From: a virus | Lineage: Duplodnaviria > Heunggongvirae > Uroviricota > Caudoviricetes | IMG/VR virus record: IMGVR_UViG_2563366831_000011 | Location: 1 to 50,364 of that record | DNA length: 50,364 bases | Reading direction: 5' to 3' (one strand) | Shown: positions 1,245 to 33,575 of the stretch, piece after piece | How positions within the stretch are numbered: the first letter of the stretch is position 1 | Layout: each line of letters opens with the position of its first letter | Notes under the pieces: generated by a model | Seen by the model: the letters and a program-made list of their open reading frames with translations, nothing else | The model's database searches: none | What the model was told of the DNA's origin: nothing | Made by a program: the position numbers and the translations under genes

Positions 1245-2405
1245 ATGCTCACCGTTAAGCAGATTGAAGCAGCAAAGCCGAAAGAAAAACCATACCGCCT
1301 TCTCGATGGTAATGGACTGTACCTTTATGTCCCTGTATCCGGGAAAAAGGTATGGCAGCTTCGCTACAAGATTGACGGTAAGGAGAAAGTCCTAACCGTA
1401 GGAAAATATCCGCTAATGACTTTGCAGGAGGCAAGGGATAAGGCATGGACTGCGAGGAAAGACATCTCGGTTGGCATCGATCCGGTAAAGGCGAAAAAGG
1501 CTTCGTCTAACAACAATTCATTTAGTGCGATTTACAAGGAATGGTACGAGCACAAGAAGCAAGTCTGGTCAGTAGGCTATGCAAATGAACTTGCAAAAAT
1601 GTTTGATGACGACATTTTACCTATCATCGGCGGCCTTGAAATTCAGGATATTGAGCCGATGCAACTACTGGAAGTAATCCGCAGATTTGAAGATCGCGGT
1701 GCAATGGAGCGAGCCAACAAAGCCCGCAGAAGATGCGGCGAGGTTTTCCGTTACGCTATTGTCACCGGCAGGGCTAAATATAACCCGGCACCTGACCTTG
1801 CTGACGCCATGAAAGGATACCGCAAGAAGAACTTCCCGTTTCTTCCTGCAGACCAGATCCCGGCATTCAACAAAGCACTGGCAACATTTTCAGGAAGTAT
1901 CGTATCGCTCATTGCGACCAAAGTTTTACGCTACACAGCCCTAAGAACGAAAGAGCTTCGTTCCATGCTATGGAAGAACGTCGATTTTGAAAACAGGATT
2001 ATCACCATCGACGCCAGCGTGATGAAGGGACGCAAGATTCATGTGGTCCCGATGTCGGACCAGGTGGTTGAACTTCTCACTACGCTAAGCTCCATCACTA
2101 AACCAGTATCAGAGTTTGTTTTTGCCGGACGCAACGATAAGAAGAAGCCAATCTGCGAGAACGCGGTATTGCTTGTGATCAAACAAATCGGCTATGAGGG
2201 TCTGGAAAGCGGTCACGGATTCAGGCATGAATTCAGCACGATTATGAACGAGCACGAATGGCCTGCTGATGCTATTGAAGTGCAACTTGCACATGCCAAC
2301 GGCGGATCTGTGCGCGGAATTTACAACCATGCTCAGTATCTCGATAAGCGCAGAGAAATGATGCAGTGGTGGGCTGATTACATCGATGGTCGTGCAGGAG
2401 TGTAA
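1245..2405 (+). CDS. intS: Tyrosine recombinase, P4-type phage integrase
   Basis: 386 aa from MLTVKQIEAAKPKEKPYRLLDGNGLYLYV, the typical P4-type integrase N-terminus; adjacent to tRNA att site; the tracked ORF begins 12 codons upstream at 1209. Confidence 0.85.
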   Translation: MLTVKQIEAAKPKEKPYRLLDGNGLYLYVPVSGKKVWQLRYKIDGKEKVLTVGKYPLMTLQEARDKAWTARKDISVGIDPVKAKKASSNNNSFSAIYKEWYEHKKQVWSVGYANELAKMFDDDILPIIGGLEIQDIEPMQLLEVIRRFEDRGAMERANKARRRCGEVFRYAIVTGRAKYNPAPDLADAMKGYRKKNFPFLPADQIPAFNKALATFSGSIVSLIATKVLRYTALRTKELRSMLWKNVDFENRIITIDASVMKGRKIHVVPMSDQVVELLTTLSSITKPVSEFVFAGRNDKKKPICENAVLLVIKQIGYEGLESGHGFRHEFSTIMNEHEWPADAIEVQLAHANGGSVRGIYNHAQYLDKRREMMQWWADYIDGRAGV

Positions 2406-2409: not shown

Positions 2410-3441
2410 TTACGCGAATTCTTCCACGATCGCCATGCCAGTAGCACCATCACCACCGGTAAATGCCGCACCGGTAAACCCAAGGTCATACGCGCCACCA
2501 CCACCGGATCCGGGAGCTGCGCCAGCAATACCGGCCTGAGAACCCGCCCGGCCACCGCCGCCAAAATACGACGCCCCGCCGTTGCCCGTCAGAAGGCTTG
2601 AGCCTGTCTGTCCATCTGAGCCGGTACCACCGTTGATCCTGATATCTCCGGTCGCCGCCGTACCTCCGGCGCCGCCGGCGGTATTGGACACGCCTGACTT
2701 CACGCCGCCTTTCCCGCCAGGAGCTGAGAACAGGCTGGCAAACGAGGTGGCCCCACCATCTGCACCACTTACTGCGCCAACTCCGCCCTTACCACCCTTG
2801 CCGACAGTAATCGCATAAGAACTGGCAGCAGACAGGTCAACCCATACGATAATGGTCGCGCCCGCGCCGCCGCCAGCACCGGAGAAGGTTTCTGTATTGT
2901 TGTAGGCCTGGCAGCCGCCACCGCCGCCACCGGCACCTGTCAACGTTACTTTTGCATAACGGGCCAGAGGAGATCGCGTATAGGTTCCGTTTGCATAGAA
3001 AGCTTTTGGAGCGCCAAGTGAACGCCCGACAAAACCAGAGGAATCAGATATTCCGAGGTTATAACGGGCTTCATTTACCGCATCCTCACCGGCATCTTTA
3101 ATTTCTGACAGGTTATTGCTGATCTGCAGGAACGATAACAATGATCCGGCTGTCATTAAATTCGCGACAATGTCATTCGTTGACCATACGCGTGCCGTTG
3201 TTCCTTCCTGACCACGAATTACTGTCATCACGTCACCGGATACAGACGTTACGTGCATAATTTCAGAAATTGTTTTCGTGGCCGCGTCGGTTATCGTTAA
3301 TTTGAAATAACTCTGCCCAGATACAGGAGAAGGGAATAAAGCCCCCGCTCCAGTTCCCACGGTAATAACGGTAGCGGACGCACTAATACCCGCAGCGAGA
3401 ACACTCTTTGCGTTATTATTGGCTAATAGCTTCAGCGCCAT
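2410..3441 (-). CDS. Tail fibre protein with glycine-rich C-terminal domain
   Basis: 343 aa; C-terminal half is a Gly-rich repeat domain (GGGGGGCQAY...GGKGGVGAVSGADGG...AYDLGFTG) paralogous to the C-terminus of the 6914..8209 product. Confidence 0.7.
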   Translation of the reverse strand: MALKLLANNNAKSVLAAGISASATVITVGTGAGALFPSPVSGQSYFKLTITDAATKTISEIMHVTSVSGDVMTVIRGQEGTTARVWSTNDIVANLMTAGSLLSFLQISNNLSEIKDAGEDAVNEARYNLGISDSSGFVGRSLGAPKAFYANGTYTRSPLARYAKVTLTGAGGGGGGCQAYNNTETFSGAGGGAGATIIVWVDLSAASSYAITVGKGGKGGVGAVSGADGGATSFASLFSAPGGKGGVKSGVSNTAGGAGGTAATGDIRINGGTGSDGQTGSSLLTGNGGASYFGGGGRAGSQAGIAGAAPGSGGGGAYDLGFTGAAFTGGDGATGMAIVEEFA

Positions 3442-3452
3442 ATATACCCCAG

Positions 3453-3770
3453 TTAAATAATAGAATTATCAGAACGAACATCGCAGATAGTAAATGTCAC
3501 GACGCCGATGACAGTAACATCGTCCAGGGCTTCACCCTCGATCACTTCGCCATCTTCGGTAATAAGTGATCTTCCTCTCAGCTTGGCAAGCTCCGTCCCG
3601 CCGCCATGCTGTATAAGCAGTTGGCTACCCTGCTTTGGCTTCAGGGAGATATCTAGTACAACGTAACCACCAGATCGCTCGAAAACTAGCGTGTTTGGGC
3701 CGACATTGCAGATCGAGTTAACAGACAACCTTTGCTCGACGTAGTCCGTCGCTGGTGAAGGGAATCCCAT
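3453..3770 (-). CDS. Hypothetical protein, second gene of an SOS-box operon
   Basis: 105 aa from the internal start MGFPSP; its ATG overlaps the upstream stop as TAATG (translational coupling); no family recognised. Confidence 0.5.
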   Translation of the reverse strand: MGFPSPATDYVEQRLSVNSICNVGPNTLVFERSGGYVVLDISLKPKQGSQLLIQHGGGTELAKLRGRSLITEDGEVIEGEALDDVTVIGVVTFTICDVRSDNSII

Positions 3771-4009
3771 TAGATCACCCTCCCCATGTTGGCCATCATC
3801 CACAGGCGGTTTTCACTATGCTCTGCCGTTTTATCGATGAAGTAAGACTGCTCGCGAGCGATCCAGGCGTTAGCCTCCACCTCGGAAAAGTGAATGCTAC
3901 GCCGGCGCAGCGCGGTAATGAAGTCGCGGGTGTGAAGGTACTGGAACCCCTTAGAACTGCGCAATACCGACTCGCGGAATGCCTGATTGATGTCTGACTG
4001 TCGATGCAT
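3770..4009 (-). CDS. Hypothetical protein, first gene of an SOS-box operon
   Basis: 79 aa from MHRQSD; GGAGG Shine-Dalgarno 7 nt upstream of the ATG; LexA box immediately upstream. Confidence 0.5.
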   Translation of the reverse strand: MHRQSDINQAFRESVLRSSKGFQYLHTRDFITALRRRSIHFSEVEANAWIAREQSYFIDKTAEHSENRLWMMANMGRVI

Positions 4010-4026
4010 GTCTTCCCTCCGATAAA

Positions 4027-4046
4027 TACTGTTTTTATATACAGTA
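4027..4046 (-). promoter_or_regulatory. LexA (SOS) box TACTGTTTTTATATACAGTA
   Basis: Matches the CTGT-N8-ACAG consensus with flanking TA/TA; sits 18 nt upstream of the 3770..4009 start codon, overlapping the likely -10. Confidence 0.6.
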
Positions 4047-4080
4047 GTTTTATTAGAAGGGAAGCTCAAGTGGTTGACAA

Positions 4081-4758
4081 TCAGTTGCCGTACTGGTCTC
4101 TATAGTATGATTTTATTTGTGAAATTTCTGATGTTGTCTTCGAAGTTGAAAAGATAAGAACTTCCGCATAGTTAACGTTATTCGCGGCAGTCGCCGCCAG
4201 CGTTAGCGGAGCATTCTGGTAGGTAATAGACGATGCCGCGGCTACGGTTATGGTCGCGTCGTTGACATACACCGTCTCGGTGTCAGTTATCGGGTCGTAG
4301 TTCACGATCACAAGATCAATGCCTGTGGATAAGGTCACCCCTCCCTGCTGGGTTGATGACCCTGTTTTGTAATAGTAGAGCTTGTTATCTGTCTGTGCCT
4401 GTAGCCGCAGATGGGGCCCCGCGATTAAAAAGGTAGCTTGTGTGGTGTTATCTCGCTTGAAAGCGAAGGCGTAGCAATAGCCGTTTTCCGCTGTAGCAGG
4501 GTAGACATTCTCAGATGTGACGCCGCCATTTGCGGTTAGCGCACTTTTCATCGTCTTGATTCCGTTCAGCGTCGACGCTGAGATTGCAGAACCTAATGCA
4601 ATATTCATATCGCCAGCGCGGTCTGCAAGAGTTGATACTCGCCAGTCAAAATAGTGCGAAGGGTTCCACCTGGCTGTTTTATCATCGCGCTCGGTATAGG
4701 TGGACTGAATACCGCTATTAACGGCGTTTGGAACCTGTAAAAAAGTACAAATTGCCAT
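4081..4758 (-). CDS. Hypothetical tail-fibre-associated protein
   Basis: 225 aa; AAGGA SD; directly downstream of the tailspike gene on the same strand; Ser/Thr/Asn-rich, beta-rich appearance. Confidence 0.5.
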   Translation of the reverse strand: MAICTFLQVPNAVNSGIQSTYTERDDKTARWNPSHYFDWRVSTLADRAGDMNIALGSAISASTLNGIKTMKSALTANGGVTSENVYPATAENGYCYAFAFKRDNTTQATFLIAGPHLRLQAQTDNKLYYYKTGSSTQQGGVTLSTGIDLVIVNYDPITDTETVYVNDATITVAAASSITYQNAPLTLAATAANNVNYAEVLIFSTSKTTSEISQIKSYYRDQYGN

Positions 4759-4769
4759 GGGTGTATTCC

Positions 4770-6899
4770 TTATTTTCTTAGGGATTGTACGGCGTAGTTC
4801 AGCAGTACTCGTTTTGCCTGATACGCGCCGATAATTCTGGCACCTCTGGCGTTAGGATGTGGGTCTGCGGGATTTGTTGTCGAATATGCATAGCCGTTCT
4901 GAAATGCAAAATTAGAATTCTTTATGAGGTCTCTTACATTGAATCCCAGCATTTTATAGGTTGACTGGATATTATCAAAAACGCTCTCACGCTTAATGTG
5001 ATTGTCGCTATACCAGCGCTCAAGGAAAATAGGCAATTTAGGAATCGCTGATTGAACACGTTCAACTATTGCACTATATCCGTTGAGAAAATCTGTGTCA
5101 GAAAGAGCATAATCATTTTCCCCAAGATTAATAAACGCGACATCCGGCTGAAAATATTGTATCCAGTATTGCTGATAAGACGCTGTTTGATTCAGGTAAT
5201 ACTGAAATGTTGCACCTCCTCTTGCGTAACGAATGACTCTGACGCCGCCAGCAGAGTTGATGCAATTGAAGCTGATCAGGGCAGGATAGCCTGCCTGACC
5301 AGATGCGGGAGGTTCAATTTCCAGGGCGAATCGACCTGAGTTCGGCCCCAGACCCTCCACCCTAACGATTGTTATCGTTTCGCTACCCTCAGGGTTATTC
5401 GGTATTGTGGCTGTTTGCCATTCCCCTGAACCCGCCGGGCCGGTGGAACCATCGTCATTCCTGTCGGTTGCACGGAACCGGAACTGACTAGATGTTCCGG
5501 CGTCTCCGGTACCAGTAAAACCGACCTCGACAACGTCGTGCTGATAAATGGGGTTGCTGCGGGCCGAATCTTTTACGCGAAAAAACAGGTTAGTTCGTCC
5601 AGCCCACGGTACTAGAGCAAAACTCAATGGTGCACATTTTTTCCCATAGGTCTGGTTATCGACCCAGCCAGTATAAACTAACTCCATATTCAGCAGATCT
5701 CTTGACGCTGTGTTATCGTTTGACGGTGCAAAATAACCGATACCCCCATGCCCAAGATTTGCTGCAAAAAGGCTGTACATAGCGTCAATGGCACCCAATC
5801 CCCCTGTGCCTGCAGTGAGAGAGTCACCCTGACAAAAAATAGTTAGATATCCTCCTGTGTATGCCCTTTCCTGCATCGCGATCATGTAATCAAGAAGACC
5901 AGTCTCTGGCAAGCTTGATGCAGCCTGAGAACCTCCTGACCCCGGCAATAGCAATTGGTCGTCGCTTCCGAGAATAGCGAATGGCGAAGATGAGTAGCCC
6001 TTTAAAATAGAACATCCGGCATCTTCTAAAGAATCAGTAGTTAAAAAAGATGCCATCTGGTTATCGCTTCCCATTACAGATAATGGCTTGCCTGGGATAC
6101 CGTAACCATATTTGATATCTGCCCCAGCATCGCGCATTCTGTCGCTATCATTGCCGTATTCAAGGACCTGATAATCAGTGCCTATGATTACGAATTTTTC
6201 ATCTCCGTATCCACTAAGAAATCTTACCCCTGCAAATATCCACGTTGAGGGCATCTGACGTCCGGTAGGCTGCAGCGTTCCGTCAACGTTTACTACCTCA
6301 ATAGCGAGCGTGTCGTCATTGTCAGTGCGATAATAAGCATTTGACCCAACAGGAATATTTCCAGCGTCTGCATCTGCCTGCGCCGCAGCCAGCGTCGGAA
6401 ACTCGCGGATTGTCCCTGTTATGGCCGCTGTACCCGGCTGCTTTGCCTGCAATACGGCCACGCCTGCTTTGTTTTGATACTGCCATGCAGCAGAAAGCGC
6501 ATCTGGACCTTGGGCTACCCAGAATGACTGCCCTTCAGTCGTTGCGGCCAGCCCGGCAATAGTGCCATCAGGATCGCTTGAGGTTTTATAGAATGTGAAC
6601 TTATTCCGTGCATATTCAGAGGCATCATTCTTGTACTCTTCAGCCTGCGCAGCTGAACCTGCGGCTGCCGTTGCCGATTCGGATGAGGCAGCGGCCGAAG
6701 TAGCAGCACTTTGTTCGGCCGTTTCTGCTGAGTTCTTGGCAGCTTCAGCCGCAGTTGCAGCATTAATCGCTTCCTGAGTGGTGGCGCTAATATCCTGATA
6801 GCCCTGCTGGACCTCGATCAGGTACTGCTTTGCCTCTGCGGCACTCACGGACGCCTCTGCCGCGAACTGTGCCGTTTGCTGTGTGTCGGTAGTCGCCAT
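4770..6899 (-). CDS. Tailspike/tail fibre with C-terminal SGNH (GDSL-like) esterase domain
   Basis: 709 aa from MATTDTQ (AGGAAA SD; tracked ORF extends to a GTG at 6920); Ala-rich N-terminus; SGNH blocks visible: FCQGDSLTAG (block I), FINLGENDYA (block III), PADPHPNARG (block V). Confidence 0.7.
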   Translation of the reverse strand: MATTDTQQTAQFAAEASVSAAEAKQYLIEVQQGYQDISATTQEAINAATAAEAAKNSAETAEQSAATSAAASSESATAAAGSAAQAEEYKNDASEYARNKFTFYKTSSDPDGTIAGLAATTEGQSFWVAQGPDALSAAWQYQNKAGVAVLQAKQPGTAAITGTIREFPTLAAAQADADAGNIPVGSNAYYRTDNDDTLAIEVVNVDGTLQPTGRQMPSTWIFAGVRFLSGYGDEKFVIIGTDYQVLEYGNDSDRMRDAGADIKYGYGIPGKPLSVMGSDNQMASFLTTDSLEDAGCSILKGYSSSPFAILGSDDQLLLPGSGGSQAASSLPETGLLDYMIAMQERAYTGGYLTIFCQGDSLTAGTGGLGAIDAMYSLFAANLGHGGIGYFAPSNDNTASRDLLNMELVYTGWVDNQTYGKKCAPLSFALVPWAGRTNLFFRVKDSARSNPIYQHDVVEVGFTGTGDAGTSSQFRFRATDRNDDGSTGPAGSGEWQTATIPNNPEGSETITIVRVEGLGPNSGRFALEIEPPASGQAGYPALISFNCINSAGGVRVIRYARGGATFQYYLNQTASYQQYWIQYFQPDVAFINLGENDYALSDTDFLNGYSAIVERVQSAIPKLPIFLERWYSDNHIKRESVFDNIQSTYKMLGFNVRDLIKNSNFAFQNGYAYSTTNPADPHPNARGARIIGAYQAKRVLLNYAVQSLRK

Positions 6900-6913
6900 A
6901 ATTTTTCCTGTTA

Positions 6914-8209
6914 TTACCACTCGATATGCACAATGCCATCGGCGCCATCGCCGGACGGGTAAGCTATTCCGCTGAAATCAATATCGTAAGCACCACCACC
7001 GCCAGAGCCTGCTGCTTTCCCTTTCACACCGCCGGTTGCGCCGCTGCGTCCTCCGCCACCCCAGAACGAAGCCCCGCCAGAACCGGTAAGCATGTTGGTC
7101 GCAGCCTGGCCGTCATGACCAGTGCCACCCTGAATGTTGATATCGCCACCTGACGCAACACCGCCATCACCACCGGCGCTGTTCACGATGCTGGCCTTGT
7201 TGGATTTTTTTCCACCGCGGCCGAAGATGATCCCACCCAAAGAAGAGTCACCGCCGTCATTGCCCGATACGGCACCTAAAACCGCTGCACCGCCTTTGCC
7301 GACGACAACGGATAAGGTCGTTCCCGGGACAACGTCCAGCCAGCCTAAAGCTGTACCGCCAGCCCCGCCACCGCCACCGCTATAGGACTCACTTGAGGAG
7401 GACGCCTGACAACCGCTTCCGGATCCGCCTGCACCCGTCACGGTGTAACGAATGCGCGTCACCCCTGCAGGCACGACGAACGAATACGTCCCGTTGACTG
7501 CGTAAGCGATGTTTCCGTGAGGCTTCGAAAGGGAGGTTACGTTGGTTCCATCGGAGTGGATTTGCGTAACCGTTCCTGGCTTGCTGACAACTGTTGCGCC
7601 CGCCGCCCTGGTACTTAACTGAACGTAGTAAGCGCTGCCGGTGCAGTTATTTTCGATGGTCCAGTCTTTCACCCATGGAGGGAGATATAGGATCCGGTTA
7701 CCAGTTAGCGCGCCGGTGAGAATTAGCCGTGGGTTAGCAGCCTGCAGATCGGTGGCGTTAACGTTAGCCGTCGATATTGAAATGCTGGCCGCTCCGCATC
7801 CCCATGAAGGCATCCAGCCAGATGCCGTTGCATCGGTTTTTTCCGGTGCGGTGTTATTGGAGTCAATGGTGTTGAGCCACGACACCGAGTAATCGCTGGA
7901 AGGGATCACCGCACCTTTAGGGTAGCCTGAAATTGCTGTTCTGAAATCTGCGTTAAAGGGGTACCCCATCCCGGCATCCGACCATTGCAGGCGAGTGTAA
8001 AGATCATTAAAAATGCCGTTAAAGTCCTGACCCTTTGGCGGCTTACCGCCGGCAGAAAGTGCGATACGGGTCAGCGGCGGGAAACCGGAATCCATAGCCG
8101 CCAGGCCGTCGGCCAGCGTTTCAGAGGTGGAATTGACCGGGATCGTGTTTTTGTCGCCGCTCGCAGAAAATACAACCGTCAGACGTGACGGTATGGCTGA
8201 ATTATTCAA
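6914..8209 (-). CDS. Tail fibre protein with glycine-rich C-terminal domain
   Basis: 431 aa; C-terminal Gly-rich domain (GGGGGAGGTALGW...GGKGG...AYDIDFSG) paralogous to 2410..3441; follows the baseplate I-like gene. Confidence 0.7.
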   Translation of the reverse strand: MNNSAIPSRLTVVFSASGDKNTIPVNSTSETLADGLAAMDSGFPPLTRIALSAGGKPPKGQDFNGIFNDLYTRLQWSDAGMGYPFNADFRTAISGYPKGAVIPSSDYSVSWLNTIDSNNTAPEKTDATASGWMPSWGCGAASISISTANVNATDLQAANPRLILTGALTGNRILYLPPWVKDWTIENNCTGSAYYVQLSTRAAGATVVSKPGTVTQIHSDGTNVTSLSKPHGNIAYAVNGTYSFVVPAGVTRIRYTVTGAGGSGSGCQASSSSESYSGGGGGAGGTALGWLDVVPGTTLSVVVGKGGAAVLGAVSGNDGGDSSLGGIIFGRGGKKSNKASIVNSAGGDGGVASGGDINIQGGTGHDGQAATNMLTGSGGASFWGGGGRSGATGGVKGKAAGSGGGGAYDIDFSGIAYPSGDGADGIVHIEW

Positions 8210-10030: not shown

Positions 10031-10387
10031 TCACAGGGTGACGCTGGAATCCAGGCCGTTGGTATCCACGATCGCAATAACGCCGGTAGTGCGGCGCGTA
10101 TCGCGGTTGTTAATCAGCGTCGGCTCAGCTCGCGCGATATAGCTCATCCGCAACGCTTCAACCTGAAGCGCGGCCGCCATGGCGCCAGTGCTGGCCTTAA
10201 CGTTAAGCAGCTCTTTGTAATTAACGCCGGTGTCTTTTTCGTAAATGCACTCGCCGCGTATAGCCAGGCATGCCGTCGCTACGTCCTGAGCGCAGGCGTA
10301 GGGGTTTTCAACCGTGGCGATATTACCCAGCTCATCAAGGACAAGATCCCAGGTGTCGGGATCGAGTTTGAGAGAGATTGTTTTCAT
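10031..10387 (-). CDS. Small baseplate protein (gpW/gp25-like position)
   Basis: 118 aa ORF immediately upstream of the J-like gene. Confidence 0.45.
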   Translation of the reverse strand: MKTISLKLDPDTWDLVLDELGNIATVENPYACAQDVATACLAIRGECIYEKDTGVNYKELLNVKASTGAMAAALQVEALRMSYIARAEPTLINNRDTRRTTGVIAIVDTNGLDSSVTL

Positions 10388-10442
10388 GGATTTCGCCCAT
10401 AAAAAAACCCAGCCGAAGCTGGGTTTGTTAAGTTGTCAATTG

Positions 10443-11447
10443 TCAGTAGCGATGCAGTGAAGGCGGCAACTCTTTGTTCTTAAGTCTTACCCATGCGGAA
10501 AGATTCGTTGGTCCGTCTGGCTCATTGATATCAACATCTCGTGTGTGGTTGATTAAAACGTCTCTCGCCATTCCGATAACATACGAAAACTCATGACCGT
10601 AGTCGTAGCATCTTCCGGAATAGTTCGATTGAATTTGTTTTAATGCCGGATACAGTTCGCGGAATAATGCCTGTGATCGGTTAGCATAATCCCACAACCA
10701 TACAAGGCTGTTTGCTTCTTTTGCAGAAAGCTCGTTGGTGCTCTTCTCTTGTTTGCCAATGAACTCACCTTCAAGTGGAACTCGAGCTGCAAGTGACAGT
10801 GCTTCGGTAAACTGCTCCTCACTGATTTCTTTGTACGAACAGCCAAAATGAGATTTCAGTGACGACCACATAGTGATCATCGCCTTCGCCTGTTTTTCTT
10901 TTGGCAGAGACTGACCGCGACTCATGACGAGTTGTTTAATAGCTTCCTGCTGTTCAGTGGTGATTTTACCCGGCAACACCTTTTTAGCTTTGCGCGGGTT
11001 AACCACATGGCCTTTAGTCCAGTACTCGTAGAGCACATCGTCACACTCTTCCTGATACTGGATTACCTTGTCGCGGATTTCAGGGCGGACTTTGTTTGGT
11101 TGAATGCTTGAAAGCCAAGCCGCAAATTTACGAAAGGCAAGACATGTCATTAACTGTTTACCGCCAGCAGAAGGTATTTCGATTTCCGAAATACCTTTGG
11201 CAAACCTCTGTTTTAACTTAACAAATTGAGCAGCCCAAACCATCCCCATACCTTCAACAACAGGCTTCATAGGAACATAAGGCTCATTGTTAATTCCAAC
11301 CAAAAAGAGATTTGTTCCGTGGAATGGAACATTGATTGTGCGATCTGCAATTGCTAAACTAGTCATATCAGTTTTCTCGTGGTTAACTGGTAATTTAGAA
11401 GCCTCAATGGTTGCAGCCATTGAGGCTTCGCTGTTTTTAGCGACCAT
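10443..11447 (-). CDS. ant: Antirepressor (P22 Ant-like)
   Basis: 334 aa from MVAKNSE (GAGGTG SD; tracked ORF starts upstream at 11489); directly downstream of an Arc-like RHH gene and divergent from an Mnt-like gene, as in P22 immI. Confidence 0.55.
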
Positions 11448-11610
11448 TCGCCACCTCTTCCCTAACACCTTTTGCCAGCAAACGAACAATTGCAGAGTTC
11501 AGAGATATACAGTCCATTTCCGCCAGGCGGCGAAGGTCTTCATTCAGCCGTGATGGAAGGCGAAGGTTGAGTTTGATATTTTTGCGCTCAGTGAAAAGTG
11601 TATCTTGCAT
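11437..11610 (-). CDS. arc: Arc-like ribbon-helix-helix repressor
   Basis: 57-aa ORF found by hand (below the ORF-track cutoff): [45 protein letters not shown]; RHH pattern similar to P22 Arc. Confidence 0.55.
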
Positions 11611-11717
11611 TATCTAATCTCCTTTATTTGGTGCCAAAGTGACACCATGAAGGCCATGATGCCACCATTGAAATCGTATGGCAATATGGCACCATGATTT
11701 TTTTTGAGAGATTTGCA
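11611..11717. promoter_or_regulatory. Divergent promoter/operator region between arc-ant and mnt
   Basis: 107-bp intergenic with repeated GGTGCCA/TGGCACC-type motifs; by analogy with P22 Pant/Pmnt. Confidence 0.4.
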
Positions 11718-12038
11718 ATGGCCGAAAAACAAGTAAAAGACTACGACAAGTTCAACCTCCGTTTTCCTGACGGAATGCGAGATGCTATAGCTGAACGAGC
11801 CAAACGAAACGGGCGCTCTATGAACTCAGAGATTGTTCAGATACTGGAAGATGCCTTGAATGCAGAAAATACACTCGGGGAAATAGCAGATAAAATTAAC
11901 AGCGTCTCGGTTCCGCTAAATGTTGATGCGCTAGTTCAACTTCAAGCCCAGGTTATCGCCATGCAAAAAGAAATACAGGAAAAGTTCAGAGAGCAGAACG
12001 AAAAGTTGAGAGAACTGCTAAACAAAAAACCCACCTGA
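11718..12038 (+). CDS. mnt: Mnt-like ribbon-helix-helix repressor
   Basis: 106 aa from MAEKQVKD; FNLRFPDGMRDAIAERAKRNGRSMNSEIVQILEDAL resembles the P22 Mnt N-terminus; coiled-coil C-terminus. Confidence 0.6.
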   Translation: MAEKQVKDYDKFNLRFPDGMRDAIAERAKRNGRSMNSEIVQILEDALNAENTLGEIADKINSVSVPLNVDALVQLQAQVIAMQKEIQEKFREQNEKLRELLNKKPT

Positions 12039-12049
12039 CGGTGGGTTTT
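12024..12049. terminator. Bidirectional intrinsic terminator
   Basis: AAAAAA-CCCACC-TGAC-GGTGGG-TTTT between convergent mnt and the lipoprotein gene. Confidence 0.55.
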
Positions 12050-12051: not shown

Positions 12052-12705
12052 CTAGTACATCGACTTGATCTGCGTGGTACCGTCCGGAACGCCGTACTTG
12101 CTCATTTTCCAACAGGCCTCAGCAACCTGGATTATTTGGTATCTCATTTCAGGGCCAATTCCTTCTGTTAAGCTAATGTGCTGTTTCATAAACTCAAGGG
12201 TCACGCCTTCCCTTTGGGCTGCCCCCGCCACCCGGCACATATGCCTTACCCCGGCGTCAGAATCAGCCTGCTGGTATGGGTATCGGGCCATTAGAGAATA
12301 GTAGACATTATTTAAAGTGTAAGACGCAGCATCAATCTCACGCTTGGCCATACACTCCTTACTAGCCTGACACTCAGCTTCTTTCTGTGCTGCAAATGCT
12401 TCGTTTTCTTTTCTTTCTTTTTCTCTTTTTTTATCCATCATGGAATCGAAGACATTGGCATATTTATTGTAGTAGCAGACGTTATCTTTAAGGCATTCGC
12501 TTGTGTTTTGCTCAGGAAGGTTTAATCCAGTAACGTTTTTATATATCTCTCTTAGATCGTCTACAGACTGAGTACCACCTGAATTTGTTTTGAATTTTTG
12601 CTTATCAAAGCCATGCTCTTTTTGGTATTGGATAGCCTCAGTAGGAGATAAAGCACAGCTTGATAATAAAAATACCAAGGGGATAAAATATATTTTACTT
12701 ACCAT
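12052..12705 (-). CDS. Lipoprotein, unknown function
   Basis: 217 aa; N-terminal signal peptide with lipobox LLSSC; charged coiled segment; last gene downstream of the gpV-like spike gene. Confidence 0.6.
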   Translation of the reverse strand: MVSKIYFIPLVFLLSSCALSPTEAIQYQKEHGFDKQKFKTNSGGTQSVDDLREIYKNVTGLNLPEQNTSECLKDNVCYYNKYANVFDSMMDKKREKERKENEAFAAQKEAECQASKECMAKREIDAASYTLNNVYYSLMARYPYQQADSDAGVRHMCRVAGAAQREGVTLEFMKQHISLTEGIGPEMRYQIIQVAEACWKMSKYGVPDGTTQIKSMY

Positions 12706-12706: not shown

Positions 12707-13294
12707 TCACGGCTCCAGGGGTTCAGTTCGGCTTCCTCCTGATACTACCCCACCATGAGTATGCCCATCAACGATAGAACCGTCGACAAGCTCAAGCTGC
12801 CCGTTTGGATGGACTTTCAGGCCGTTGATGTTAACCACTCCAGGGCTCTGTATGTTTATTCCGCTTCCTGTAAACTCAGCGAACTCCGTGGGTTCATCGT
12901 TCAAACTAGCGATAGCAGTGATGTAAACAGCATCCGAGTATGAATGGCGCCGCTGAGTTGGCGGTGGTCCACTTTGCCTTGACGCTCTGACATTGGTTGT
13001 GTCTTTGTCACAGGCGATTACCAGTCCAATATCGCCAATGCGGGGAGTCATTTTTACAGCGCTGTTCCCAGCCTGATACCGAATGAAGGGGATGTCATAT
13101 ACCTCCTGACATTTAATCTCCCCCCCGGAAACGTTCGCGCCGCTCACAAGAGGTAGCACAGTCATAACGCCATCACCAACATCTTTAACCAGAACAATAT
13201 CTGCAAAAACATTGCCCTTTGATGCCGTGGCTATAAGGGACAAGATCGCGTTACCCTGACAGGAGATATCAGAAGCTTTTTGGTTAGTTGCCAT
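12707..13294 (-). CDS. Baseplate central spike protein (gpV-like)
   Basis: 195 aa from MATNQKAS (GGAGGGG SD); C-terminal HTHGG motif typical of spike tips; position in baseplate cluster. Confidence 0.5.
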   Translation of the reverse strand: MATNQKASDISCQGNAILSLIATASKGNVFADIVLVKDVGDGVMTVLPLVSGANVSGGEIKCQEVYDIPFIRYQAGNSAVKMTPRIGDIGLVIACDKDTTNVRASRQSGPPPTQRRHSYSDAVYITAIASLNDEPTEFAEFTGSGINIQSPGVVNINGLKVHPNGQLELVDGSIVDGHTHGGVVSGGSRTEPLEP

Positions 13295-14153
13295 TGCTTT
13301 CCCCTCCGATGACAGATGCCGGAGATGCCACAACAAACGTCTCCCAAAGCCCACCAGGCACTTTACAGGACAGATAGTGGGTAGTCCCCGCCTGCACCAC
13401 CCACTCGCCGCTAGCGTGTGGCAAGTCTGTTTTCAGGATGATCTTCGTATTCAATTTTAGCGCCGGTGAATAAATGCACCTAAAGTTAATCCCCATCTCA
13501 TAAAATATTGGATACCCAATAAGTCCATGCTCTGGCGAAATTAACGGAACAACTGAATCCGACGGTGTTTTGCCTGTATAAATTGTGACAGTGCCAAAAT
13601 CTATATCAACAGATATGTCATGCGCTGCCGCAATTTTTAATATTTGGATTATTGCGTTGTCATCGAAATACGGATTCCGATGCGTCGCTTTGACGTCGAC
13701 ATTGATGAATTTCAGGCCAACTTTAAAGGCAAGAGCACGAATCATATCAGCAACATCAGCATCGCCGCGAATGGACGTAGGCTCGCAGGGGATCAGGCGC
13801 TCCCTGCCGGCGGCCGCCGCGGTTATCTCAATCGGTGCGTCCGGCATCTGGTTCAGGTTAATCCTGGCAGATGTTATTGACCCGGAAAAAACACGGGTGT
13901 CGCCGGCGTAAACGACAATTGAGTTCTGTGCATACGCGATTATCTTTTGCGCGTTGGTCGTCAACTTTGACATGTTTTCCAGGGAAAGTCCCCAGAGGCT
14001 AAGTTCAAGAATCGTTCCGGTAGCGCCGCCAAATGCTGATATAGCCGCCTCACACTTGAAACCTTTAACCGTCAAGGTGTCGCCAATGTCGCCGTCAAAC
14101 GTACCGTTGGCCAGCGTGAACGATACGGTAAGCTCTCTCTCCTTGTAACTCAT
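13284..14153 (-). CDS. Tail/baseplate structural protein (hub-like)
   Basis: 289 aa; between tape measure and spike genes. Confidence 0.45.
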   Translation of the reverse strand: MSYKERELTVSFTLANGTFDGDIGDTLTVKGFKCEAAISAFGGATGTILELSLWGLSLENMSKLTTNAQKIIAYAQNSIVVYAGDTRVFSGSITSARINLNQMPDAPIEITAAAAGRERLIPCEPTSIRGDADVADMIRALAFKVGLKFINVDVKATHRNPYFDDNAIIQILKIAAAHDISVDIDFGTVTIYTGKTPSDSVVPLISPEHGLIGYPIFYEMGINFRCIYSPALKLNTKIILKTDLPHASGEWVVQAGTTHYLSCKVPGGLWETFVVASPASVIGGESNGN

Positions 14154-15299: not shown

Positions 15300-17204
15300 T
15301 TATTGTCCTGAGTAGCCAGCCAAAAGCATGACACGGTTGTCGCCGTGCTTTTTGATGTCGCTGGTAAGCTGTTCCACGTTCTGGGCCTGGGTGGTGATTT
15401 TGGTGCCATAAAAGTTATAAACACCGCCAGCCTGACCCGGCATCGCGCGGTCTACGGCCATCCCGGCCCCGGGGCGCATTCCGGCCATGACTTTAGGGAC
15501 GTAATTTCGAGTTTCCGACGGCAGGTTATCCATGCCTTTCTTCTGGACGTTTCCGAGCCCCCAGTTATAGGAAGCAAGAGTTTTTTCCAGATCTCCGCCA
15601 GTGGCATCCATTAACCATCTTAGATATTTCGCTGCTGCCTCTGCAGACTTGTGGGGATCGTAAACATCACGACCTTTGAGCCCCATATCCTTTGCCGTGC
15701 CAGGCATGAACTGGAACAGGCCTTTGGCTCCGGCCTTCGACTCCGCAAACGGATCACCACCTGATTCAGTAGCAGCTACCGAAGACAGCAGCCCGGCAGG
15801 TAGGTCATATTTACCCTCCAGCGCACCGAACTCACCCGCCATTGCCTGCAAGAATGATTTTCCTTTAATACCCAATTTTGCTGCTTTGGCATTTAATGGG
15901 ATGTTAGGCTGGTATTGGCCTACATCCAATTTCATTGCCGTAGACAAATCCATTTGGGTATCCATCATTGCCTGCTGGTAGGCATTAGGAACAGTCCTCT
16001 GTGAGCCATTAGGAACAGCGCCGGAGTCAATTTGCCGCTGCCTTTCCTCTGCGTCTTTCTTGTTAAGGAAAAACTCTCCATTAGAGGTCCAGAAAATACC
16101 GTGATTTTGCATCCACTCCTTATTTTCCTTGCTCACTATCTTCGACAGGAGCCCGTCAATTATTGGATAGAGCGCAGTTATGGCAAAAATGAGACCACCC
16201 GGACCACTTAGCGCAAACGCAATCCCTCTAAACCATGATGCAACCTTTAAAGCAAGCAACGCGACAATAACATTCTTCCACCCTCCCACTGCGTCGGCTG
16301 CATCATTGGCTGCAGCCGCCACGTCTTTGATGGCGCCGAAAAACGCATCAATACCGGCTTTCATCTCTTTAGGGTGAGATTTCATCCAGTCAGATAAGTC
16401 ACGAAGTACGCCATTGAACTCGCGCACATACGGGATCAGGAAGGTATAAAACTGGTTTTTTGTGGTATCAAGGTTCTGGTTTAATTCAGCCCATGCGGCT
16501 GTAAATTCCTTTGCGCCTTTGGTTGAGGCGTCTGTAATGCCGGAGCTTTTAGTCAGGCGATCAACGTCAGGCAGGAATTGCCCTTCCTGGTTGCGCTGGT
16601 TGATAGCATCATCAATACCTACCAACTGAAGAATCTGACGGCGGATATCTGGATCGGTAACCTTCCTTGCCGAATCCAGTATTTTCCTGAACGTGGTTTG
16701 TGCTGAGTCGTCCCTGATATTGAAAGAATCATGGGTCAGTGAATTAAGCCGGATTGCAGCTTCCTGCACTGGCGTATCGTACACCCCGACCTTAGCCAGT
16801 TGCTTTGCGTTCTGAAACCCCTGCAATGCTGCACTTATTTTCTCGACAGAACTACCGGCCGCCTCTGCCGCCTTGCCCACGCCGTCAAGCTCTTTGGCTG
16901 TCATCCCCAAAGATTTAGCCTGAATGGACAACTCCATTAGCCCTGAGGTAGTGCTTTTCACAAAGCTCATCAGGCCGCCGGCAGTGACGGTAACGCCAGT
17001 CAGTGCCAGCAATTCCGTCTTTATGCTGCCGAAGAATGCTGCTGCCTTTTTCCCCTGCTCCGCCATTTCCTTGGCAGTTTTTTTGGCATCTTCGCGCTGC
17101 TTTTTCAGGTCATCACTGACTTCCTGCTGGCCTTTGCGGAACTGAGAAGTATCAAGGCCCAGCGTAACCAGGAGGGCGTCAATTACCGTTGCTGCCATGA
17201 TCAC
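15300..17204 (-). CDS. Tail tape measure protein with lytic transglycosylase (SLT) domain
   Basis: 634 aa; helical N-terminal part; C-terminal SLT signature VAATESGGDPFAESKAGAKGLFQFMPGTA. Confidence 0.75.
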   Translation of the reverse strand: MIMAATVIDALLVTLGLDTSQFRKGQQEVSDDLKKQREDAKKTAKEMAEQGKKAAAFFGSIKTELLALTGVTVTAGGLMSFVKSTTSGLMELSIQAKSLGMTAKELDGVGKAAEAAGSSVEKISAALQGFQNAKQLAKVGVYDTPVQEAAIRLNSLTHDSFNIRDDSAQTTFRKILDSARKVTDPDIRRQILQLVGIDDAINQRNQEGQFLPDVDRLTKSSGITDASTKGAKEFTAAWAELNQNLDTTKNQFYTFLIPYVREFNGVLRDLSDWMKSHPKEMKAGIDAFFGAIKDVAAAANDAADAVGGWKNVIVALLALKVASWFRGIAFALSGPGGLIFAITALYPIIDGLLSKIVSKENKEWMQNHGIFWTSNGEFFLNKKDAEERQRQIDSGAVPNGSQRTVPNAYQQAMMDTQMDLSTAMKLDVGQYQPNIPLNAKAAKLGIKGKSFLQAMAGEFGALEGKYDLPAGLLSSVAATESGGDPFAESKAGAKGLFQFMPGTAKDMGLKGRDVYDPHKSAEAAAKYLRWLMDATGGDLEKTLASYNWGLGNVQKKGMDNLPSETRNYVPKVMAGMRPGAGMAVDRAMPGQAGGVYNFYGTKITTQAQNVEQLTSDIKKHGDNRVMLLAGYSGQ

Positions 17205-17402: not shown

Positions 17403-17879
17403 CTAACTTGCGGTGGCTGCTACAAAAGCGATATGGAGTTTGAAGGCTTCGATTTTCAGGCGCGACCAGGTGCTGATTTCTTCGATCTGACCTTCGTCAA
17501 CAAGCGCTGTTTCGATACCATTACCGCCGAGGAATTTCACGCAGCCAAGCAACTCATCAAGCAGAGGCTTTGACTGTGCGAACGGAACTTTAGCCAGTGA
17601 AGTGATACCCCACTGAGCGAGTCCGGCCATACCGCTGGCCATCACGCTTTCGTACAGCTCGCGAGCTTCTGCGTTATCCTCGGCTGGGGCCGGCGCCACC
17701 GCAGCACCGATGGCCATCATCATATTGTCGGGAACGGTAACGCCGGCGCCAATCACGGCACACGCCAGGCGGATCGCCCACTCTTCGGCCTTTCTCGCCG
17801 GCATTTCGGTGATTTTGAACTGCTTACCCTTGTCACGGTTATCTGCTTCAACCGTGAATACGATGCTTTTACGAGCCAT
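17403..17879 (-). CDS. Tail assembly chaperone-like protein
   Basis: 158 aa gene just upstream of the tape measure gene; the -1 frame stays open across its stop into the tape measure start. Confidence 0.4.
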   Translation of the reverse strand: MARKSIVFTVEADNRDKGKQFKITEMPARKAEEWAIRLACAVIGAGVTVPDNMMMAIGAAVAPAPAEDNAEARELYESVMASGMAGLAQWGITSLAKVPFAQSKPLLDELLGCVKFLGGNGIETALVDEGQIEEISTWSRLKIEAFKLHIAFVAATAS

Positions 17880-17915
17880 TTTTGTTTCCTGAATGAGTTA
17901 TCTGGCAATAAATAA

Positions 17916-17962
17916 GCCCACCGTAGTGGGCCATTCAAAAACCACGAATTTGTGGTTTTCAT
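17916..17962 (-). terminator. Tandem hairpins downstream of rha copy 1
   Basis: AAAACCAC-GAATTT-GTGGTTTT and GCCCAC-CGTA-GTGGGC followed by T-rich tracts on the minus strand. Confidence 0.45.
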
Positions 17963-18516
17963 GATTCGGTAAGCGCACCAGGAAAACCGGGCAATGCCAA
18001 CTGACCTTGCTTGTCCAGTTGCTCAATGCGTGAAAGTAGCTGTGGCTTCTTCTCTTTCCCCCACCGGCGCAACAGACGACCAGACATACTGGCAACATCC
18101 TTCTCTTTAAGGAACTCCAGCATGACGGCGTTACGCTCTTCTTCAAACTGGCGCCGCCCAACCTGAAGCATCGCGTACATCCAGTTGAAGGCGTTGATGT
18201 AGGCGATCTTGATACGCATCGCCTCTTTTTTGGTGTAGGACATAACCAGAAGCATCAATCCATCTTTGCGGAGGCGATAGAACTTCTGCGGCTTTCCGTT
18301 CTGCAACTCATTGTTTTTATAGCAAACCTCAAAATTGAGTTTTGTATCGAACTCTTCCGGGCATGCCTTAATAGTCTTTTCGATATCACGAATGACGTTG
18401 TCAGGACGTTTCCCAAATGCCTTCGCCACCATAAACGAGTCAGTTACCGGGTCGTTGTCAGCAACAAAAATGAGGTCACGGAAATCAAGTCCGTTAATAA
18501 CTGTTGGGTATGACAT
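17959..18516 (-). CDS. rha: Rha-family phage regulatory protein (moron copy 1)
   Basis: 185 aa; recalled Rha-family N-terminal domain; inserted between tail tube and chaperone genes and flanked by terminators. Confidence 0.65.
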   Translation of the reverse strand: MSYPTVINGLDFRDLIFVADNDPVTDSFMVAKAFGKRPDNVIRDIEKTIKACPEEFDTKLNFEVCYKNNELQNGKPQKFYRLRKDGLMLLVMSYTKKEAMRIKIAYINAFNWMYAMLQVGRRQFEEERNAVMLEFLKEKDVASMSGRLLRRWGKEKKPQLLSRIEQLDKQGQLALPGFPGALTES

Positions 18517-33570: not shown

Positions 33571-33575
33571 ATGTT

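What the first reader, a model, noticed from the sequence alone, without database searches (positions are those of the whole stretch)
12052..12705. Lipoprotein encoded at the end of the baseplate operon, candidate receptor-blocking exclusion protein
The 217-aa ORF has a clear signal peptide and lipobox (LLSSC) followed by a charged coiled segment, and is the last gene after the spike gene before a bidirectional terminator. Phage lipoproteins encoded next to receptor-binding proteins (T5 Llp, phi80 Cor) block the phage receptor in lysogens or infected cells. This gene could play that role for this phage.
Basis: inference. Interest (0 to 1): 0.5.

Follow-up and report, generated by a model that had tools for sequence, protein, structure and literature searches.

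The report
Uncharacterised prophage outer-membrane lipoprotein beside tail spike
This is a real, well-conserved phage gene for a disulfide-bonded lipoprotein that is exported to the bacterial envelope and sits inside (not at the end of) the tail-baseplate operon; it probably protects the infected cell or lysogen from further phage attack, but it is unrelated to the known exclusion lipoproteins and its function has not been tested.

Summary
The ORF 12052-12705 (-) is real. It encodes 217 aa with a signal peptide and lipobox (LSS-C17, Ala at +2). dN/dS is about 0.1. Six further Cys are lost only in pairs across the family, which indicates three periplasmic disulfides.

The gene is not the end of the baseplate operon. 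It lies between the central spike gene and the sheath-initiator/J/wedge/fibre genes. Its start is 1 nt after the spike stop. A P22-immI-like mnt/arc/ant module has been inserted just downstream of it.

In about 14 related prophages it is the only gene in that slot. Sister phages carry other envelope proteins there instead.

The protein has two parts:
- A 34%-GC N-module that exists as at least 6 deeply diverged, recombining alleles.
- A 50%-GC C-domain that tracks the phage backbone. A distant phage keeps this domain behind a disordered linker.

The family is small: 46 clusters among 1.84 billion representative proteins. It has no Pfam, PADLOC, PDB or BFVD relative outside itself.

It is not Llp, Cor, Rtp45, TraT, Bor or Rz1. 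Identical alleles occur with many different fibres and tailspikes, so there is no coupling to those receptor-binding proteins.

Best reading: an accessory outer-membrane lipoprotein facing the periplasm that acts in superinfection exclusion or progeny protection. This is plausible but unproven. Interest is moderate.

The parts
12052..12705 (-). Lipoprotein gene, 217 codons plus stop (TAG at 12052-12054)
   Evidence: ORF. Full-length match to PHROG 26209, function unknown, E = 7e-148. Purifying selection. The exact protein is indexed in 403 blocks of public assemblies.
12655..12705 (-). Signal peptide (codons 1-16) and lipobox L-S-S-C17. Ala18 is the +2 residue.
   Evidence: Pattern match and hydrophobicity. 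Conserved across the family, with +2 never Asp.
12385..12654 (-). Variable N-module (codons 18-107). It includes Cys71/Cys77 and the start of the long charged helix. GC is 34%.
   Evidence: Mean pairwise distance is 35%, against 4-12% for the flanking structural genes. Synonymous divergence between alleles is saturated, and a clean recombination break separates it from the C-domain. GC. In L042/L043 a disordered linker takes its place.
12055..12384 (-). Conserved C-domain (codons 108-217). It has Cys112/118 and Cys157/198, invariant R154, C157, C198 and W199, and a DGTxxI tail. GC is 50%.
   Evidence: Alignments A2 and A3. hhalign gives 99.9% probability over 108 columns to the short-form lipoprotein of L042. 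It tracks the backbone, with Mantel r = 0.92 against baseplate J. GC.
12713..12716 (-). GGAG ribosome-binding site inside the last codons of the spike gene. The spike stop TGA (12707-12709) is 1 nt before the ATG.
   Evidence: Read from the sequence. The same junction, or an overlapping GTGATG, is seen in the relatives examined. In L059, L060 and L064 an inverted 149-aa gene is inserted, but about 60 nt of the old junction is kept.
12026..12049 (.). Hairpin terminator shared with the convergent mnt-like gene
   Evidence: 10-bp stem, 5 GC pairs, followed by a T run.
12707..13294 (-). Central tail spike gene (195 aa from the ATG used in relatives; the longest ORF runs to 13354). It has an HxH apex motif and lies immediately upstream.
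   Evidence: Weak Pfam hit to a phage spike N-domain. The ORF translation ends ...DGHTHGG.... Called as 195 aa in all relatives. The L042 counterpart has the GpV Apex motif.
13284..14153 (-). Baseplate hub (E217 gp41-like)
   Evidence: Pfam PF22759, E = 2e-9.
10443..12038 (.). Inserted immI-like module downstream of the lipoprotein gene: ant (10443-11489, -), arc-like (11437-11610, -) and mnt/arc-like (11694-12038, +). It is not part of the lipoprotein unit.
   Evidence: Pfam P22_AR_N/C and Arc. 97% identical to Stx phages. Absent or different in many relatives that keep the lipoprotein.
10405..10426 (-). Conserved terminator that marks the downstream edge of the variable slot, directly in front of the gp25-like gene
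   Evidence: The same hairpin precedes the gp25-like gene in all relatives inspected.
10031..10387 (-). gp25-like sheath initiator. The baseplate operon resumes here.
   Evidence: PF10934 (weak) on the identical orthologues. Baseplate_J follows it.

Best explanation
The gene encodes an accessory (moron-type) lipoprotein.

Export and location:
- It is exported by Sec, lipidated at Cys17 and cleaved by signal peptidase II.
- It folds in the periplasm as an all-helical, three-disulfide protein.

Expression: it is made from the Q-dependent late transcript together with the central spike, to which it is translationally coupled. Low-level expression in the lysogen is possible.

Proposed role: the conserved C-terminal domain (residues about 108-217) is the effector. 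It hangs from the membrane anchor on a replaceable N-terminal module or linker. I propose that it acts at the envelope to stop further phage from infecting productively, that is, superinfection exclusion and protection of released progeny from being wasted on infected cells, lysogens and debris.

The sub-mechanism I rate most likely (about 0.25-0.3) follows Llp and Rtp45. The protein would bind the periplasmic face of an outer-membrane protein that the conserved tail tip needs, and make that protein unusable.

Shown: the gene, the lipobox, the Cys pattern, the two-part architecture, the synteny, accessory status, and the lack of homology to known families. Inferred: localisation, timing of expression, and all of the function.
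For: - Lipoprotein signal conserved family-wide, with +2 never Asp.
- Six Cys lost only pairwise (P0020 lacks 71/77; P0048 lacks 112/118), as expected for periplasmic disulfides.
- High-confidence all-alpha model, pLDDT 88.
- Homologues lie in the baseplate or tail-fibre module, on the same strand, in four different phage backgrounds:
  - after the spike in Klebsiella/E. coli prophages;
  - after the GpV-apex spike in L042/L043;
  - just before the tail-fibre gene in Yersinia phages;
  - after the fibre chaperone in L041.
- It is accessory. Sister phages with baseplate proteins 71-100% identical lack it. They carry a 3-TM zinc-ribbon membrane protein or a Sec-exported periplasmic protein in the same slot.
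- The N-module has 34% GC and exists as ancient, recombining alleles under purifying selection.
- A Q antiterminator and conserved intra-operon terminators fit late read-through.
- Precedents: phage lipoproteins in structural gene clusters exclude phages by acting on FhuA, LptD, OmpA or LamB. Self-exclusion also protects progeny.
Against: - There are no functional data.
- No sequence or structural similarity to any characterised exclusion protein or defence protein.
- The mature protein is about 22.9 kDa, several times the size reported for Rtp45, and it is helical.
- The lipoprotein allele is not coupled to fibre or tailspike alleles. In mEpimmI phages the lipoprotein type does match the receptor type.
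- The promoter scan found no site upstream of the gene. Expression in the lysogen, which classical lysogen immunity to adsorption would need, is therefore unsupported.
- The conserved effector domain is the part furthest from the lipid anchor. In Llp and Rtp45 the folded domain sits directly against the membrane.
Confidence: 0.42

Rival explanations
1. Post-adsorption exclusion. The tethered C-domain reaches into the periplasm and binds the incoming tail tip (central spike, or the tape-measure protein with its SLT domain). This would block envelope penetration or DNA ejection rather than adsorption. In logic it resembles T4 Spackle or the Gram-positive lipoprotein Ltp.
For: - The gene is translationally coupled to the central spike gene in two divergent E217-like lineages.
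- The C-domain co-varies with the phage backbone, not with the fibres (r = 0.92 with J, 0.58 with spike).
- The conserved domain is separated from the anchor by a roughly 90-residue module or a roughly 35-residue disordered linker.
- Independence from fibre and tailspike alleles is what this model predicts.
- The Spackle precedent is cited.
Against: - Backbone co-variation may simply reflect vertical inheritance.
- The Yersinia and L041 homologues sit next to fibre genes, not next to the spike.
- The Yersinia phage tape-measure protein has no detectable SLT domain, so an SLT-inhibitor role cannot hold for the whole family.
- To my knowledge there is no precedent for an outer-membrane-anchored protein of this kind in Gram-negative bacteria.
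Confidence: 0.2
2. Lysogenic-conversion or host-fitness factor. An outer-membrane lipoprotein that alters envelope properties, such as serum or complement resistance or membrane robustness, in the manner of Bor or TraT, with no role in phage-phage interactions.
For: - Moron-like features: low-GC N-module, a terminator downstream, accessory distribution.
- It is common in clinical Klebsiella genomes.
Against: - No Pfam match for any of 37 family members, so none to the TraT or Bor families.
- The promoter scan found no site upstream of the gene, and the gene is coupled to a late structural gene.
- Consistent placement inside tail-tip modules of unrelated phages points to a phage-centred role.
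Confidence: 0.12
3. Helper for the phage's own lytic cycle. It would be made late to condition the envelope for release, for example by modulating peptidoglycan or outer-membrane integrity, or by protecting the cell from the phage's own tail-borne SLT before lysis.
For: Late-operon position and coupling to the spike. The tape-measure protein carries an SLT domain in the Klebsiella/E. coli and L042 lineages.
Against: - A complete holin / endolysin / Rz / Rz1 cassette exists elsewhere.
- The gene is dispensable in sister phages.
- Tail proteins stay cytoplasmic until lysis, so there is no obvious need for periplasmic self-protection.
- The Yersinia phage tape-measure protein lacks SLT.
Confidence: 0.08
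4. Virion (baseplate) structural or assembly protein.
For: Only its position inside the baseplate operon.
Against: - A conserved Sec/lipoprotein signal and paired cysteines place it outside the cytoplasm, where tails assemble.
- It is absent from sister phages with near-identical baseplates.
Confidence: 0.02

Closest known systems
T5 Llp, Cor (T1/phi80/N15) and Rtp45: small superinfection-exclusion lipoproteins
   Same: Phage-encoded, lipobox-bearing, disulfide-containing and periplasmic-facing outer-membrane lipoproteins. They are encoded in the tail-tip or receptor-binding-protein region and are accessory to the virion.
   Different: - No sequence or fold similarity.
- This protein is about 22.9 kDa mature, all-helical, has three disulfides and two modules. 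Rtp45 is about 6 kDa, and Llp has one reported disulfide.
- Its allele is not coupled to the neighbouring receptor-binding proteins.
- Its target is unknown.
Lpp exclusion lipoproteins of mEpimmI coliphages (Lpp021, Lpp010)
   Same: Lipoproteins found by lipobox inside the structural gene cluster of temperate enterobacterial phages. They exist as several sequence types and have been shown to exclude the cognate phages.
   Different: In mEpimmI the lipoprotein type matches the receptor (OmpA or LamB). No such matching to fibres or tailspikes is seen here.
Ltp of Streptococcus thermophilus phage TP-J34 (from my own knowledge, not tested here)
   Same: The architecture: lipid anchor, then spacer, then helical effector domain(s). 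The short form in L042 has exactly anchor, disordered linker and helical domain.
   Different: Ltp is from a Gram-positive host and sits at the outer face of the cytoplasmic membrane. No homology was detected in the PDB searches.
T4 Spackle (Sp)
   Same: A small helical periplasmic protein that neutralises the tail-tip machinery of superinfecting phage (and my own knowledge).
   Different: Spackle is soluble, not a lipoprotein. No structural match was listed. Its target is the gp5 lysozyme, whereas the spike here has no enzymatic domain.
Rz1 o-spanin
   Same: A phage outer-membrane lipoprotein made late in infection.
   Different: This prophage has its own Rz1, embedded in Rz at 32088-32279. 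The 217-aa protein is not proline-rich, is not nested in an Rz gene, and lies outside the lysis cassette.

Membership tests
Bacterial lipoprotein (Lgt/Lsp substrate) | N-terminal signal peptide with a positive n-region, a hydrophobic h-region and a lipobox [LVI][ASTVI][GAS]C | tested here: met
   MVSK-IYFIPLVFL-LSS-C17 fits the PROSITE-type pattern. Background is 3 of 257 ORFs. The lipobox Cys is conserved in 36 of 37 aligned members.
Bacterial lipoprotein (Lgt/Lsp substrate) | Lipidation and cleavage actually occur; outer-membrane sorting when +2 is not Asp | not testable with these tools
   +2 is Ala here and is never Asp in the family. This is a rule-based inference only.
Llp/Cor small exclusion lipoproteins | Sequence homology to Llp or Cor | tested here: not met
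   No Pfam family at E <= 0.01 for this protein or any of 37 relatives. The only PHROG hit is 26209, function unknown. A profile search of all PDB chains at E <= 10 finds only TrwH, and only on the signal peptide.
Llp/Cor small exclusion lipoproteins | Small mature protein with a single folded domain directly behind the anchor | tested here: not met
   201 mature residues, 22.9 kDa, two modules and 7 helices. Compare the descriptions.
Llp/Cor small exclusion lipoproteins | Encoded next to the receptor-binding protein gene and matched to its receptor | tested here: inconclusive
   It is encoded in the tail-tip module. However, identical alleles occur with many different fibre and tailspike sets, and Mantel r is 0.25. 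The terminal-receptor binder of this phage is unknown.
Llp/Cor small exclusion lipoproteins | Blocks adsorption or infection when expressed | not testable with these tools
   This needs an expression and plating experiment.
Rtp45-type LptD-binding lipoprotein | Homology to, or fold of, Rtp45 (PDB 9RPS) | tested here: not met
TraT / lambda Bor surface-exclusion and serum-resistance lipoproteins | Match to a Pfam family (TraT and Bor families included) | tested here: not met
   No Pfam match at all for this protein. Only sporadic unrelated hits above E = 0.002 among its relatives.
o-spanin (Rz1) | Short proline-rich lipoprotein embedded in, or adjacent to, an Rz gene in the lysis cassette | tested here: not met
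   The real Rz1 is at 32088-32279 inside Rz (32035-32472), next to holin and endolysin genes.
Known anti-phage defence systems (PADLOC) | Match to a PADLOC model | tested here: not met
   Zero hits at E <= 1 for this protein and three distant relatives.
PHROG 26209 / the family defined here (phage lipoproteins with this C-domain) | Lipobox plus a C-domain with CxxxxxC ... R-x2-C ... CW ... DGTxxI | tested here: met
   E = 7e-148 to PHROG 26209. 46 clusters in 1.84 billion representative proteins. Alignments A1-A3. Short form in L042.
Moron (accessory gene inside a late operon) | Present or absent between otherwise collinear phages; deviant composition; flanked by a terminator and its own promoter | tested here: inconclusive
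   Presence/absence and slot replacement are met. The N-module has 34% GC against a 50% backbone. A terminator lies downstream. The scan found no promoter of its own; there is only an 8/12 match inside spike codons.

The most novel reading that the evidence does not exclude
The family would be a new, modular class of phage envelope-immunity protein. A conserved periplasmic effector domain hangs from an outer-membrane lipid anchor on interchangeable spacer or targeting cassettes and is co-translated with the central spike. It would stop contractile-tail phages after adsorption by engaging the penetrating tail tip. That would make it the first outer-membrane-anchored, post-adsorption exclusion system in Gram-negative bacteria, comparable in logic to Spackle or to T6SS immunity lipoproteins.
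Probability: 0.15. Interest if true: 0.7.

Novelty: new variant of a known kind. Interest (0 to 1): 0.4.

Why it matters
If it is an exclusion factor, it adds a structurally new, much larger and modular family to the short list of phage lipoproteins that control entry (Llp, Cor, Rtp45).

It is common in Klebsiella pneumoniae prophages. Prophage-encoded resistance there limits phage therapy, and the terminal (non-capsule) receptors of temperate myoviruses there are poorly known. Finding its binding partner could reveal that receptor, or the step of envelope penetration that is blocked.

The recombining N-terminal alleles would offer a natural experiment in specificity.

If it turns out to be a host-fitness factor instead, it is one more lysogenic-conversion gene.

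Tried and rejected
- **o-spanin:** rejected. A canonical S/R/Rz/Rz1 cassette lies at 32035-33252.
- **Virion component:** rejected, because of the export signal, the paired Cys, and absence from sister phages.
- **Receptor-binding-protein coupling:** tested by Mantel correlation on 32 loci and by looking up identical alleles in further genomes. No coupling to the Gly_rich_2 fibres or the tailspikes.
- **SLT-inhibitor idea:** weakened, because the Yersinia phage tape-measure protein has no SLT hit.
- **Homology of the alternative slot occupant ST899_68 to the C-domain:** none (hhalign probability 0.6%).
- **Structure searches:**
  - Foldseek against the PDB gave nothing below E = 2.7.
  - BFVD returned only one family member.
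  - AFDB50 was not available.
- **Pfam, NCBIfam and PADLOC:** nothing.
- **Locus searches:**
  - Single-protein scans with P0030, P0036 and P0027 found no viral contigs.
  - The species-representative genome scan found only Raoultella sp. BIGb0138.
- **E. coli complete genomes:** no copy of the gene, with either megablast or word-11 blastn.
- **Own promoter:** the scan found none upstream. By eye there is a weak TTGATG-18-TAGTAT at 12771-12742, which lies within conserved HxH-motif codons, so it cannot be called.
- **Literature searches:** no paper on this family.

Full report
**Setting.** The window is an E. coli chromosomal segment carrying a prophage at argW.
- Left flank: yfdC (1-933), tRNA-Arg(CCT) (1009-1083) and the integrase (1209-2405).
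- Right flank: a csc-type MFS transporter (49117-50364).
- Both flanks are 100% identical to E. coli genomes.
- The prophage has lambdoid regulators: an S24/HTH-type (CI-like) repressor, CII and a Q antiterminator. It also has a holin / endolysin / Rz / Rz1 cassette.
- Its contractile tail resembles that of Pseudomonas phage E217.
- The baseplate DNA is 85-91% identical to Klebsiella phages and prophages.

**Observation.** The ORF at 12052-12705 (-) encodes 217 aa beginning MVSKIYFIPLVFLLSS-C17-ALSP.
- It fits the PROSITE-type lipobox rule. Only 3 of 257 six-frame ORFs of at least 50 aa in the window do. The other two are the real Rz1 and one antisense ORF.
- The mature protein has 201 aa, a mass of 22.9 kDa and seven Cys.
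That model is otherwise all-alpha and confident (pLDDT 88, pTM 0.55, from a 17-sequence alignment).
- The gene is under purifying selection. Against L006, dN = 0 and dS = 0.11. Within alleles the median dN/dS is 0.07-0.10.

**Position.** That is wrong.
- The gene starts 1 nt after the stop of the central spike gene (TGA-A-ATG). Its GGAG RBS lies inside the last spike codons.
- It ends at a hairpin shared with a convergent mnt-like gene.
- Downstream on the same strand, after an mnt/arc/ant module that is 97% identical to Stx phages, the operon continues with the gp25-like sheath initiator, Baseplate_J, the DUF2612 wedge, a Gly_rich_2 fibre and a GDSL-esterase tailspike.
- I examined about 55 related loci: L005-L038 in the script, and L045-L064. 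In almost all, the lipoprotein gene directly follows the spike gene, with a 1-5 nt gap or an overlapping GTGATG.
- In about 14 loci it is the only gene between the spike and the gp25-like gene. The spacer is 65-66 nt and consists of a conserved terminator followed by the gp25-like RBS.
- The window's copy of that terminator is at 10405-10426. The immI module is therefore a further insertion into the same slot. The late transcript must read through these terminators, and the prophage encodes a Q antiterminator.
- Exception: in L059, L060 and L064 an inverted 149-aa gene has been inserted between the spike and the lipoprotein gene. About 60 nt of the old junction, including the RBS, remains in front of the lipoprotein gene.

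**Accessory status.** Klebsiella phages ST15-VIM1phi2.1, ST899-OXA48phi17.1 and KP12 have baseplate proteins 71-100% identical to those here, yet lack the gene. tblastn of all 50,697 deposited phage genomes finds it only in three Yersinia phages. In the same slot:
- KP12 encodes a membrane protein with three hydrophobic segments and a zinc ribbon.
- ST899 encodes a protein with a cleavable Sec signal. It is not homologous to the lipoprotein.

The slot after the spike gene is thus a hot spot for envelope-targeted cargo.

**The family.**
- A profile search of 1.84 billion representative proteins finds only 46 clusters.
- All the full-length members I read have a lipoprotein signal except P0038, which has Tyr at the lipobox position.
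- None has Asp at +2. By the Enterobacterial sorting rule this predicts outer-membrane localisation.
- Besides the lipid Cys there are six Cys, at positions 71/77, 112/118 and 157/198. They disappear only in pairs: P0020 lacks 71 and 77, and P0048 lacks 112 and 118. That is the signature of three disulfides and of folding in the periplasm.
- R154, C157, C198 and W199 are invariant.
- No Pfam, NCBIfam or PADLOC model matches this protein. No Pfam model matches any of 37 relatives beyond noise.
- The only PHROG hit is 26209, of unknown function.
- BFVD returns only another family member, annotated 'Lipoprotein'.
- The exact protein is indexed in 403 blocks of public assemblies. It is named only 'hypothetical protein' in E. 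coli and Klebsiella records.
- None of 5,426 complete E. coli genomes carries the gene.

**Two modules.**
- Mean pairwise distance across 32 loci:

| Protein or module | Mean pairwise distance |
|---|---|
| Lipoprotein N-module (residues 18-110) | 35% |
| Lipoprotein C-domain | 13% |
| Spike | 12% |
| Hub | 6% |
| Baseplate J | 4% |

- The N-module has 34% GC. The C-domain has 50%, like the phage as a whole.
- Between N-alleles, synonymous sites are saturated while the C-domains can be identical. Window versus L021: in the N-module dN = 0.39 and dS = 2.3; in the C-domain both are 0. These are old alleles shuffled by recombination, not fast positive selection.
- C-domain distances follow the backbone (Mantel r = 0.92 with J). 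N-module distances follow nothing well (r about 0.2).
- In a distant E217-like phage (L042/L043) the gene right after the GpV-apex spike encodes a 157-aa lipoprotein. It consists of a signal peptide, a low-complexity linker of about 35 residues, and the C-domain (hhalign probability 99.9% over 108 columns).
- The C-domain is therefore the conserved functional core. The N-module is a replaceable spacer or specificity module.

A lipoprotein that blocks the receptor of its own phage should co-vary with the receptor-binding protein. In mEpimmI coliphages it does: type A goes with OmpA users and type C with LamB users. Here it does not.
- The window allele occurs with fibres of 431 or 347 aa and with tailspikes called at 709-1097 aa.
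- Allele P0017 occurs with fibres of 341, 347, 349 or 431 aa. Its tailspikes include pectate-lyase, GDSL and SASA types.
- Allele P0005 occurs with intact fibres of 341-449 aa.
- The Mantel r between the N-module and the fibre C-terminal part is 0.25.
- These fibres and tailspikes most likely bind capsule or O-antigen, which a periplasmic protein cannot mask. This last point is my inference.
- Receptor blocking therefore survives only for a terminal receptor that conserved tail-tip parts would recognise.

**Synteny in other lineages.**
- Yersinia phages vB_YenM_29.18, 30.14 and 210.17: the homologue (30% identity) lies just before the tail-fibre gene, after the baseplate J-like gene and one further gene.
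- L041: it follows the tail fibre and its gpK-type chaperone.
- In all four phage backgrounds it lies in the tail-tip module, on the same strand.

**Interpretation.**
- Shown: an exported, lipidation-competent, disulfide-bonded helical protein that is accessory, modular, under purifying selection, and tied to tail-tip gene modules.
- Inferred: outer-membrane inner-leaflet location, late co-expression with the spike, and function.
- By position, localisation and precedent (Llp-FhuA, Rtp45-LptD, Cor, mEpimmI Lpp), and given the progeny-protection benefit of self-exclusion, the most likely role is envelope-level exclusion of incoming phage. I give this general class about 0.6.
- Within that class I split the probability: about 0.4 for a periplasmic-side block of an outer-membrane component, reported as the best explanation at 0.42, and about 0.2 for a post-adsorption block of the penetrating tail tip.
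- The tip-block rival is favoured by the spike coupling, by independence from the fibres, and by the anchor-spacer-effector layout.
- Host-fitness conversion (0.12), a helper role in the phage's own lytic cycle (0.08) and a virion role (0.02) are less likely.
- The protein is not a member of any characterised family. If it is an exclusion factor, it is a new structural variant of a known functional kind.

Noticed in passing
window 10443-12038: A P22-immI-like module lies inside the baseplate operon, between the lipoprotein gene and the gp25-like gene. It comprises ant with P22_AR_N/C domains, an arc-like gene and an mnt/arc-like gene. It is about 97% identical to Stx-converting phages, while the flanking baseplate genes are Klebsiella-like.
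   Followed up: partly
window 1-2405 and 49117-50364: The prophage is integrated at argW in E. coli (yfdC, tRNA-Arg CCT at 1009-1083, integrase at 1209-2405). The far flank is a csc-type MFS transporter. The tail module is Klebsiella-like, and the lipoprotein gene is absent from all 5,426 complete E. coli genomes. This looks like a prophage type shared across genera.
   Followed up: partly
window 10405-10426, and the equivalent site in L014-L037: A conserved rho-independent terminator (AAACCYCGCTTCGGCGGGGTTTTTTT) sits immediately in front of the gp25-like sheath-initiator gene in all relatives inspected, in the middle of the baseplate operon. This implies Q-dependent read-through; Q is at 33714-34232.
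   Followed up: partly
window 17403-18516: A second regulatory insertion in the tail operon: a Rha/ORF11CD3 protein (17959-18516) and a 158-aa ORF (17403-17879), between the tube-side genes and the SLT-domain tape-measure gene (15300-17204). Relatives carry KilA-N/P63C genes or nothing at this site.
   Followed up: no
window 12742-12771 (-): A weak sigma-70-like element, TTGATG-18 nt-TAGTAT (8 of 12), lies about 35 nt upstream of the lipoprotein ATG, within the HxH-motif codons of the spike. In L019 and L031-L033 the second hexamer is TAGAAT (9 of 12). It could allow spike-independent expression, but coding constraint explains its conservation equally well.
   Followed up: partly
L003 5727-6107 (-) and L002 5503-5904 (-): Sister phages fill the slot after the spike gene with unrelated envelope proteins. 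KP12_373 has three hydrophobic segments and a CxxC...CxxC zinc ribbon (PHROG 8436). ST899_68 has a Sec signal peptide and is predicted periplasmic (PHROG 13007). Both are uncharacterised.
   Followed up: partly
L042 7848-8321 and L043 2175-2648: A short-form family member (157 aa) made of a lipobox, a disordered linker of about 35 aa and the conserved C-domain. It lies directly after a GpV-apex spike in a distant E217-like phage. That phage also has a 529-aa Laminin_G_3 protein between it and the gp25-like gene.
   Followed up: yes
L059, L060 and L064, 9318-10000: An inverted 149-aa gene (a homologue of ST899_67, PHROG 26342) is inserted into the 3' end of the spike gene. This uncouples the lipoprotein gene from the spike while keeping about 60 nt of the old junction.
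   Followed up: partly
window 2410-8209 and the equivalent regions of L005-L064: The tail-fibre and tailspike region is a cassette system. Two Gly_rich_2 fibre proteins (6914-8209 and 2410-3441) flank a GDSL-esterase tailspike (4770-6920). Near-identical prophages carry tailspikes from about 600 to about 1,450 aa with pectate-lyase, SASA, GDSL or End_beta_barrel domains.
   Followed up: no
window 33495-33650: tRNA-Thr(TGT) and tRNA-Asn(GTT) genes lie within the prophage, between the lysis cassette and the Q antiterminator gene.
   Followed up: no
window 32088-32279 (-): An Rz1 o-spanin ORF (lipobox VSAC, proline-rich) is embedded out of frame in Rz (32035-32472).
   Followed up: yes
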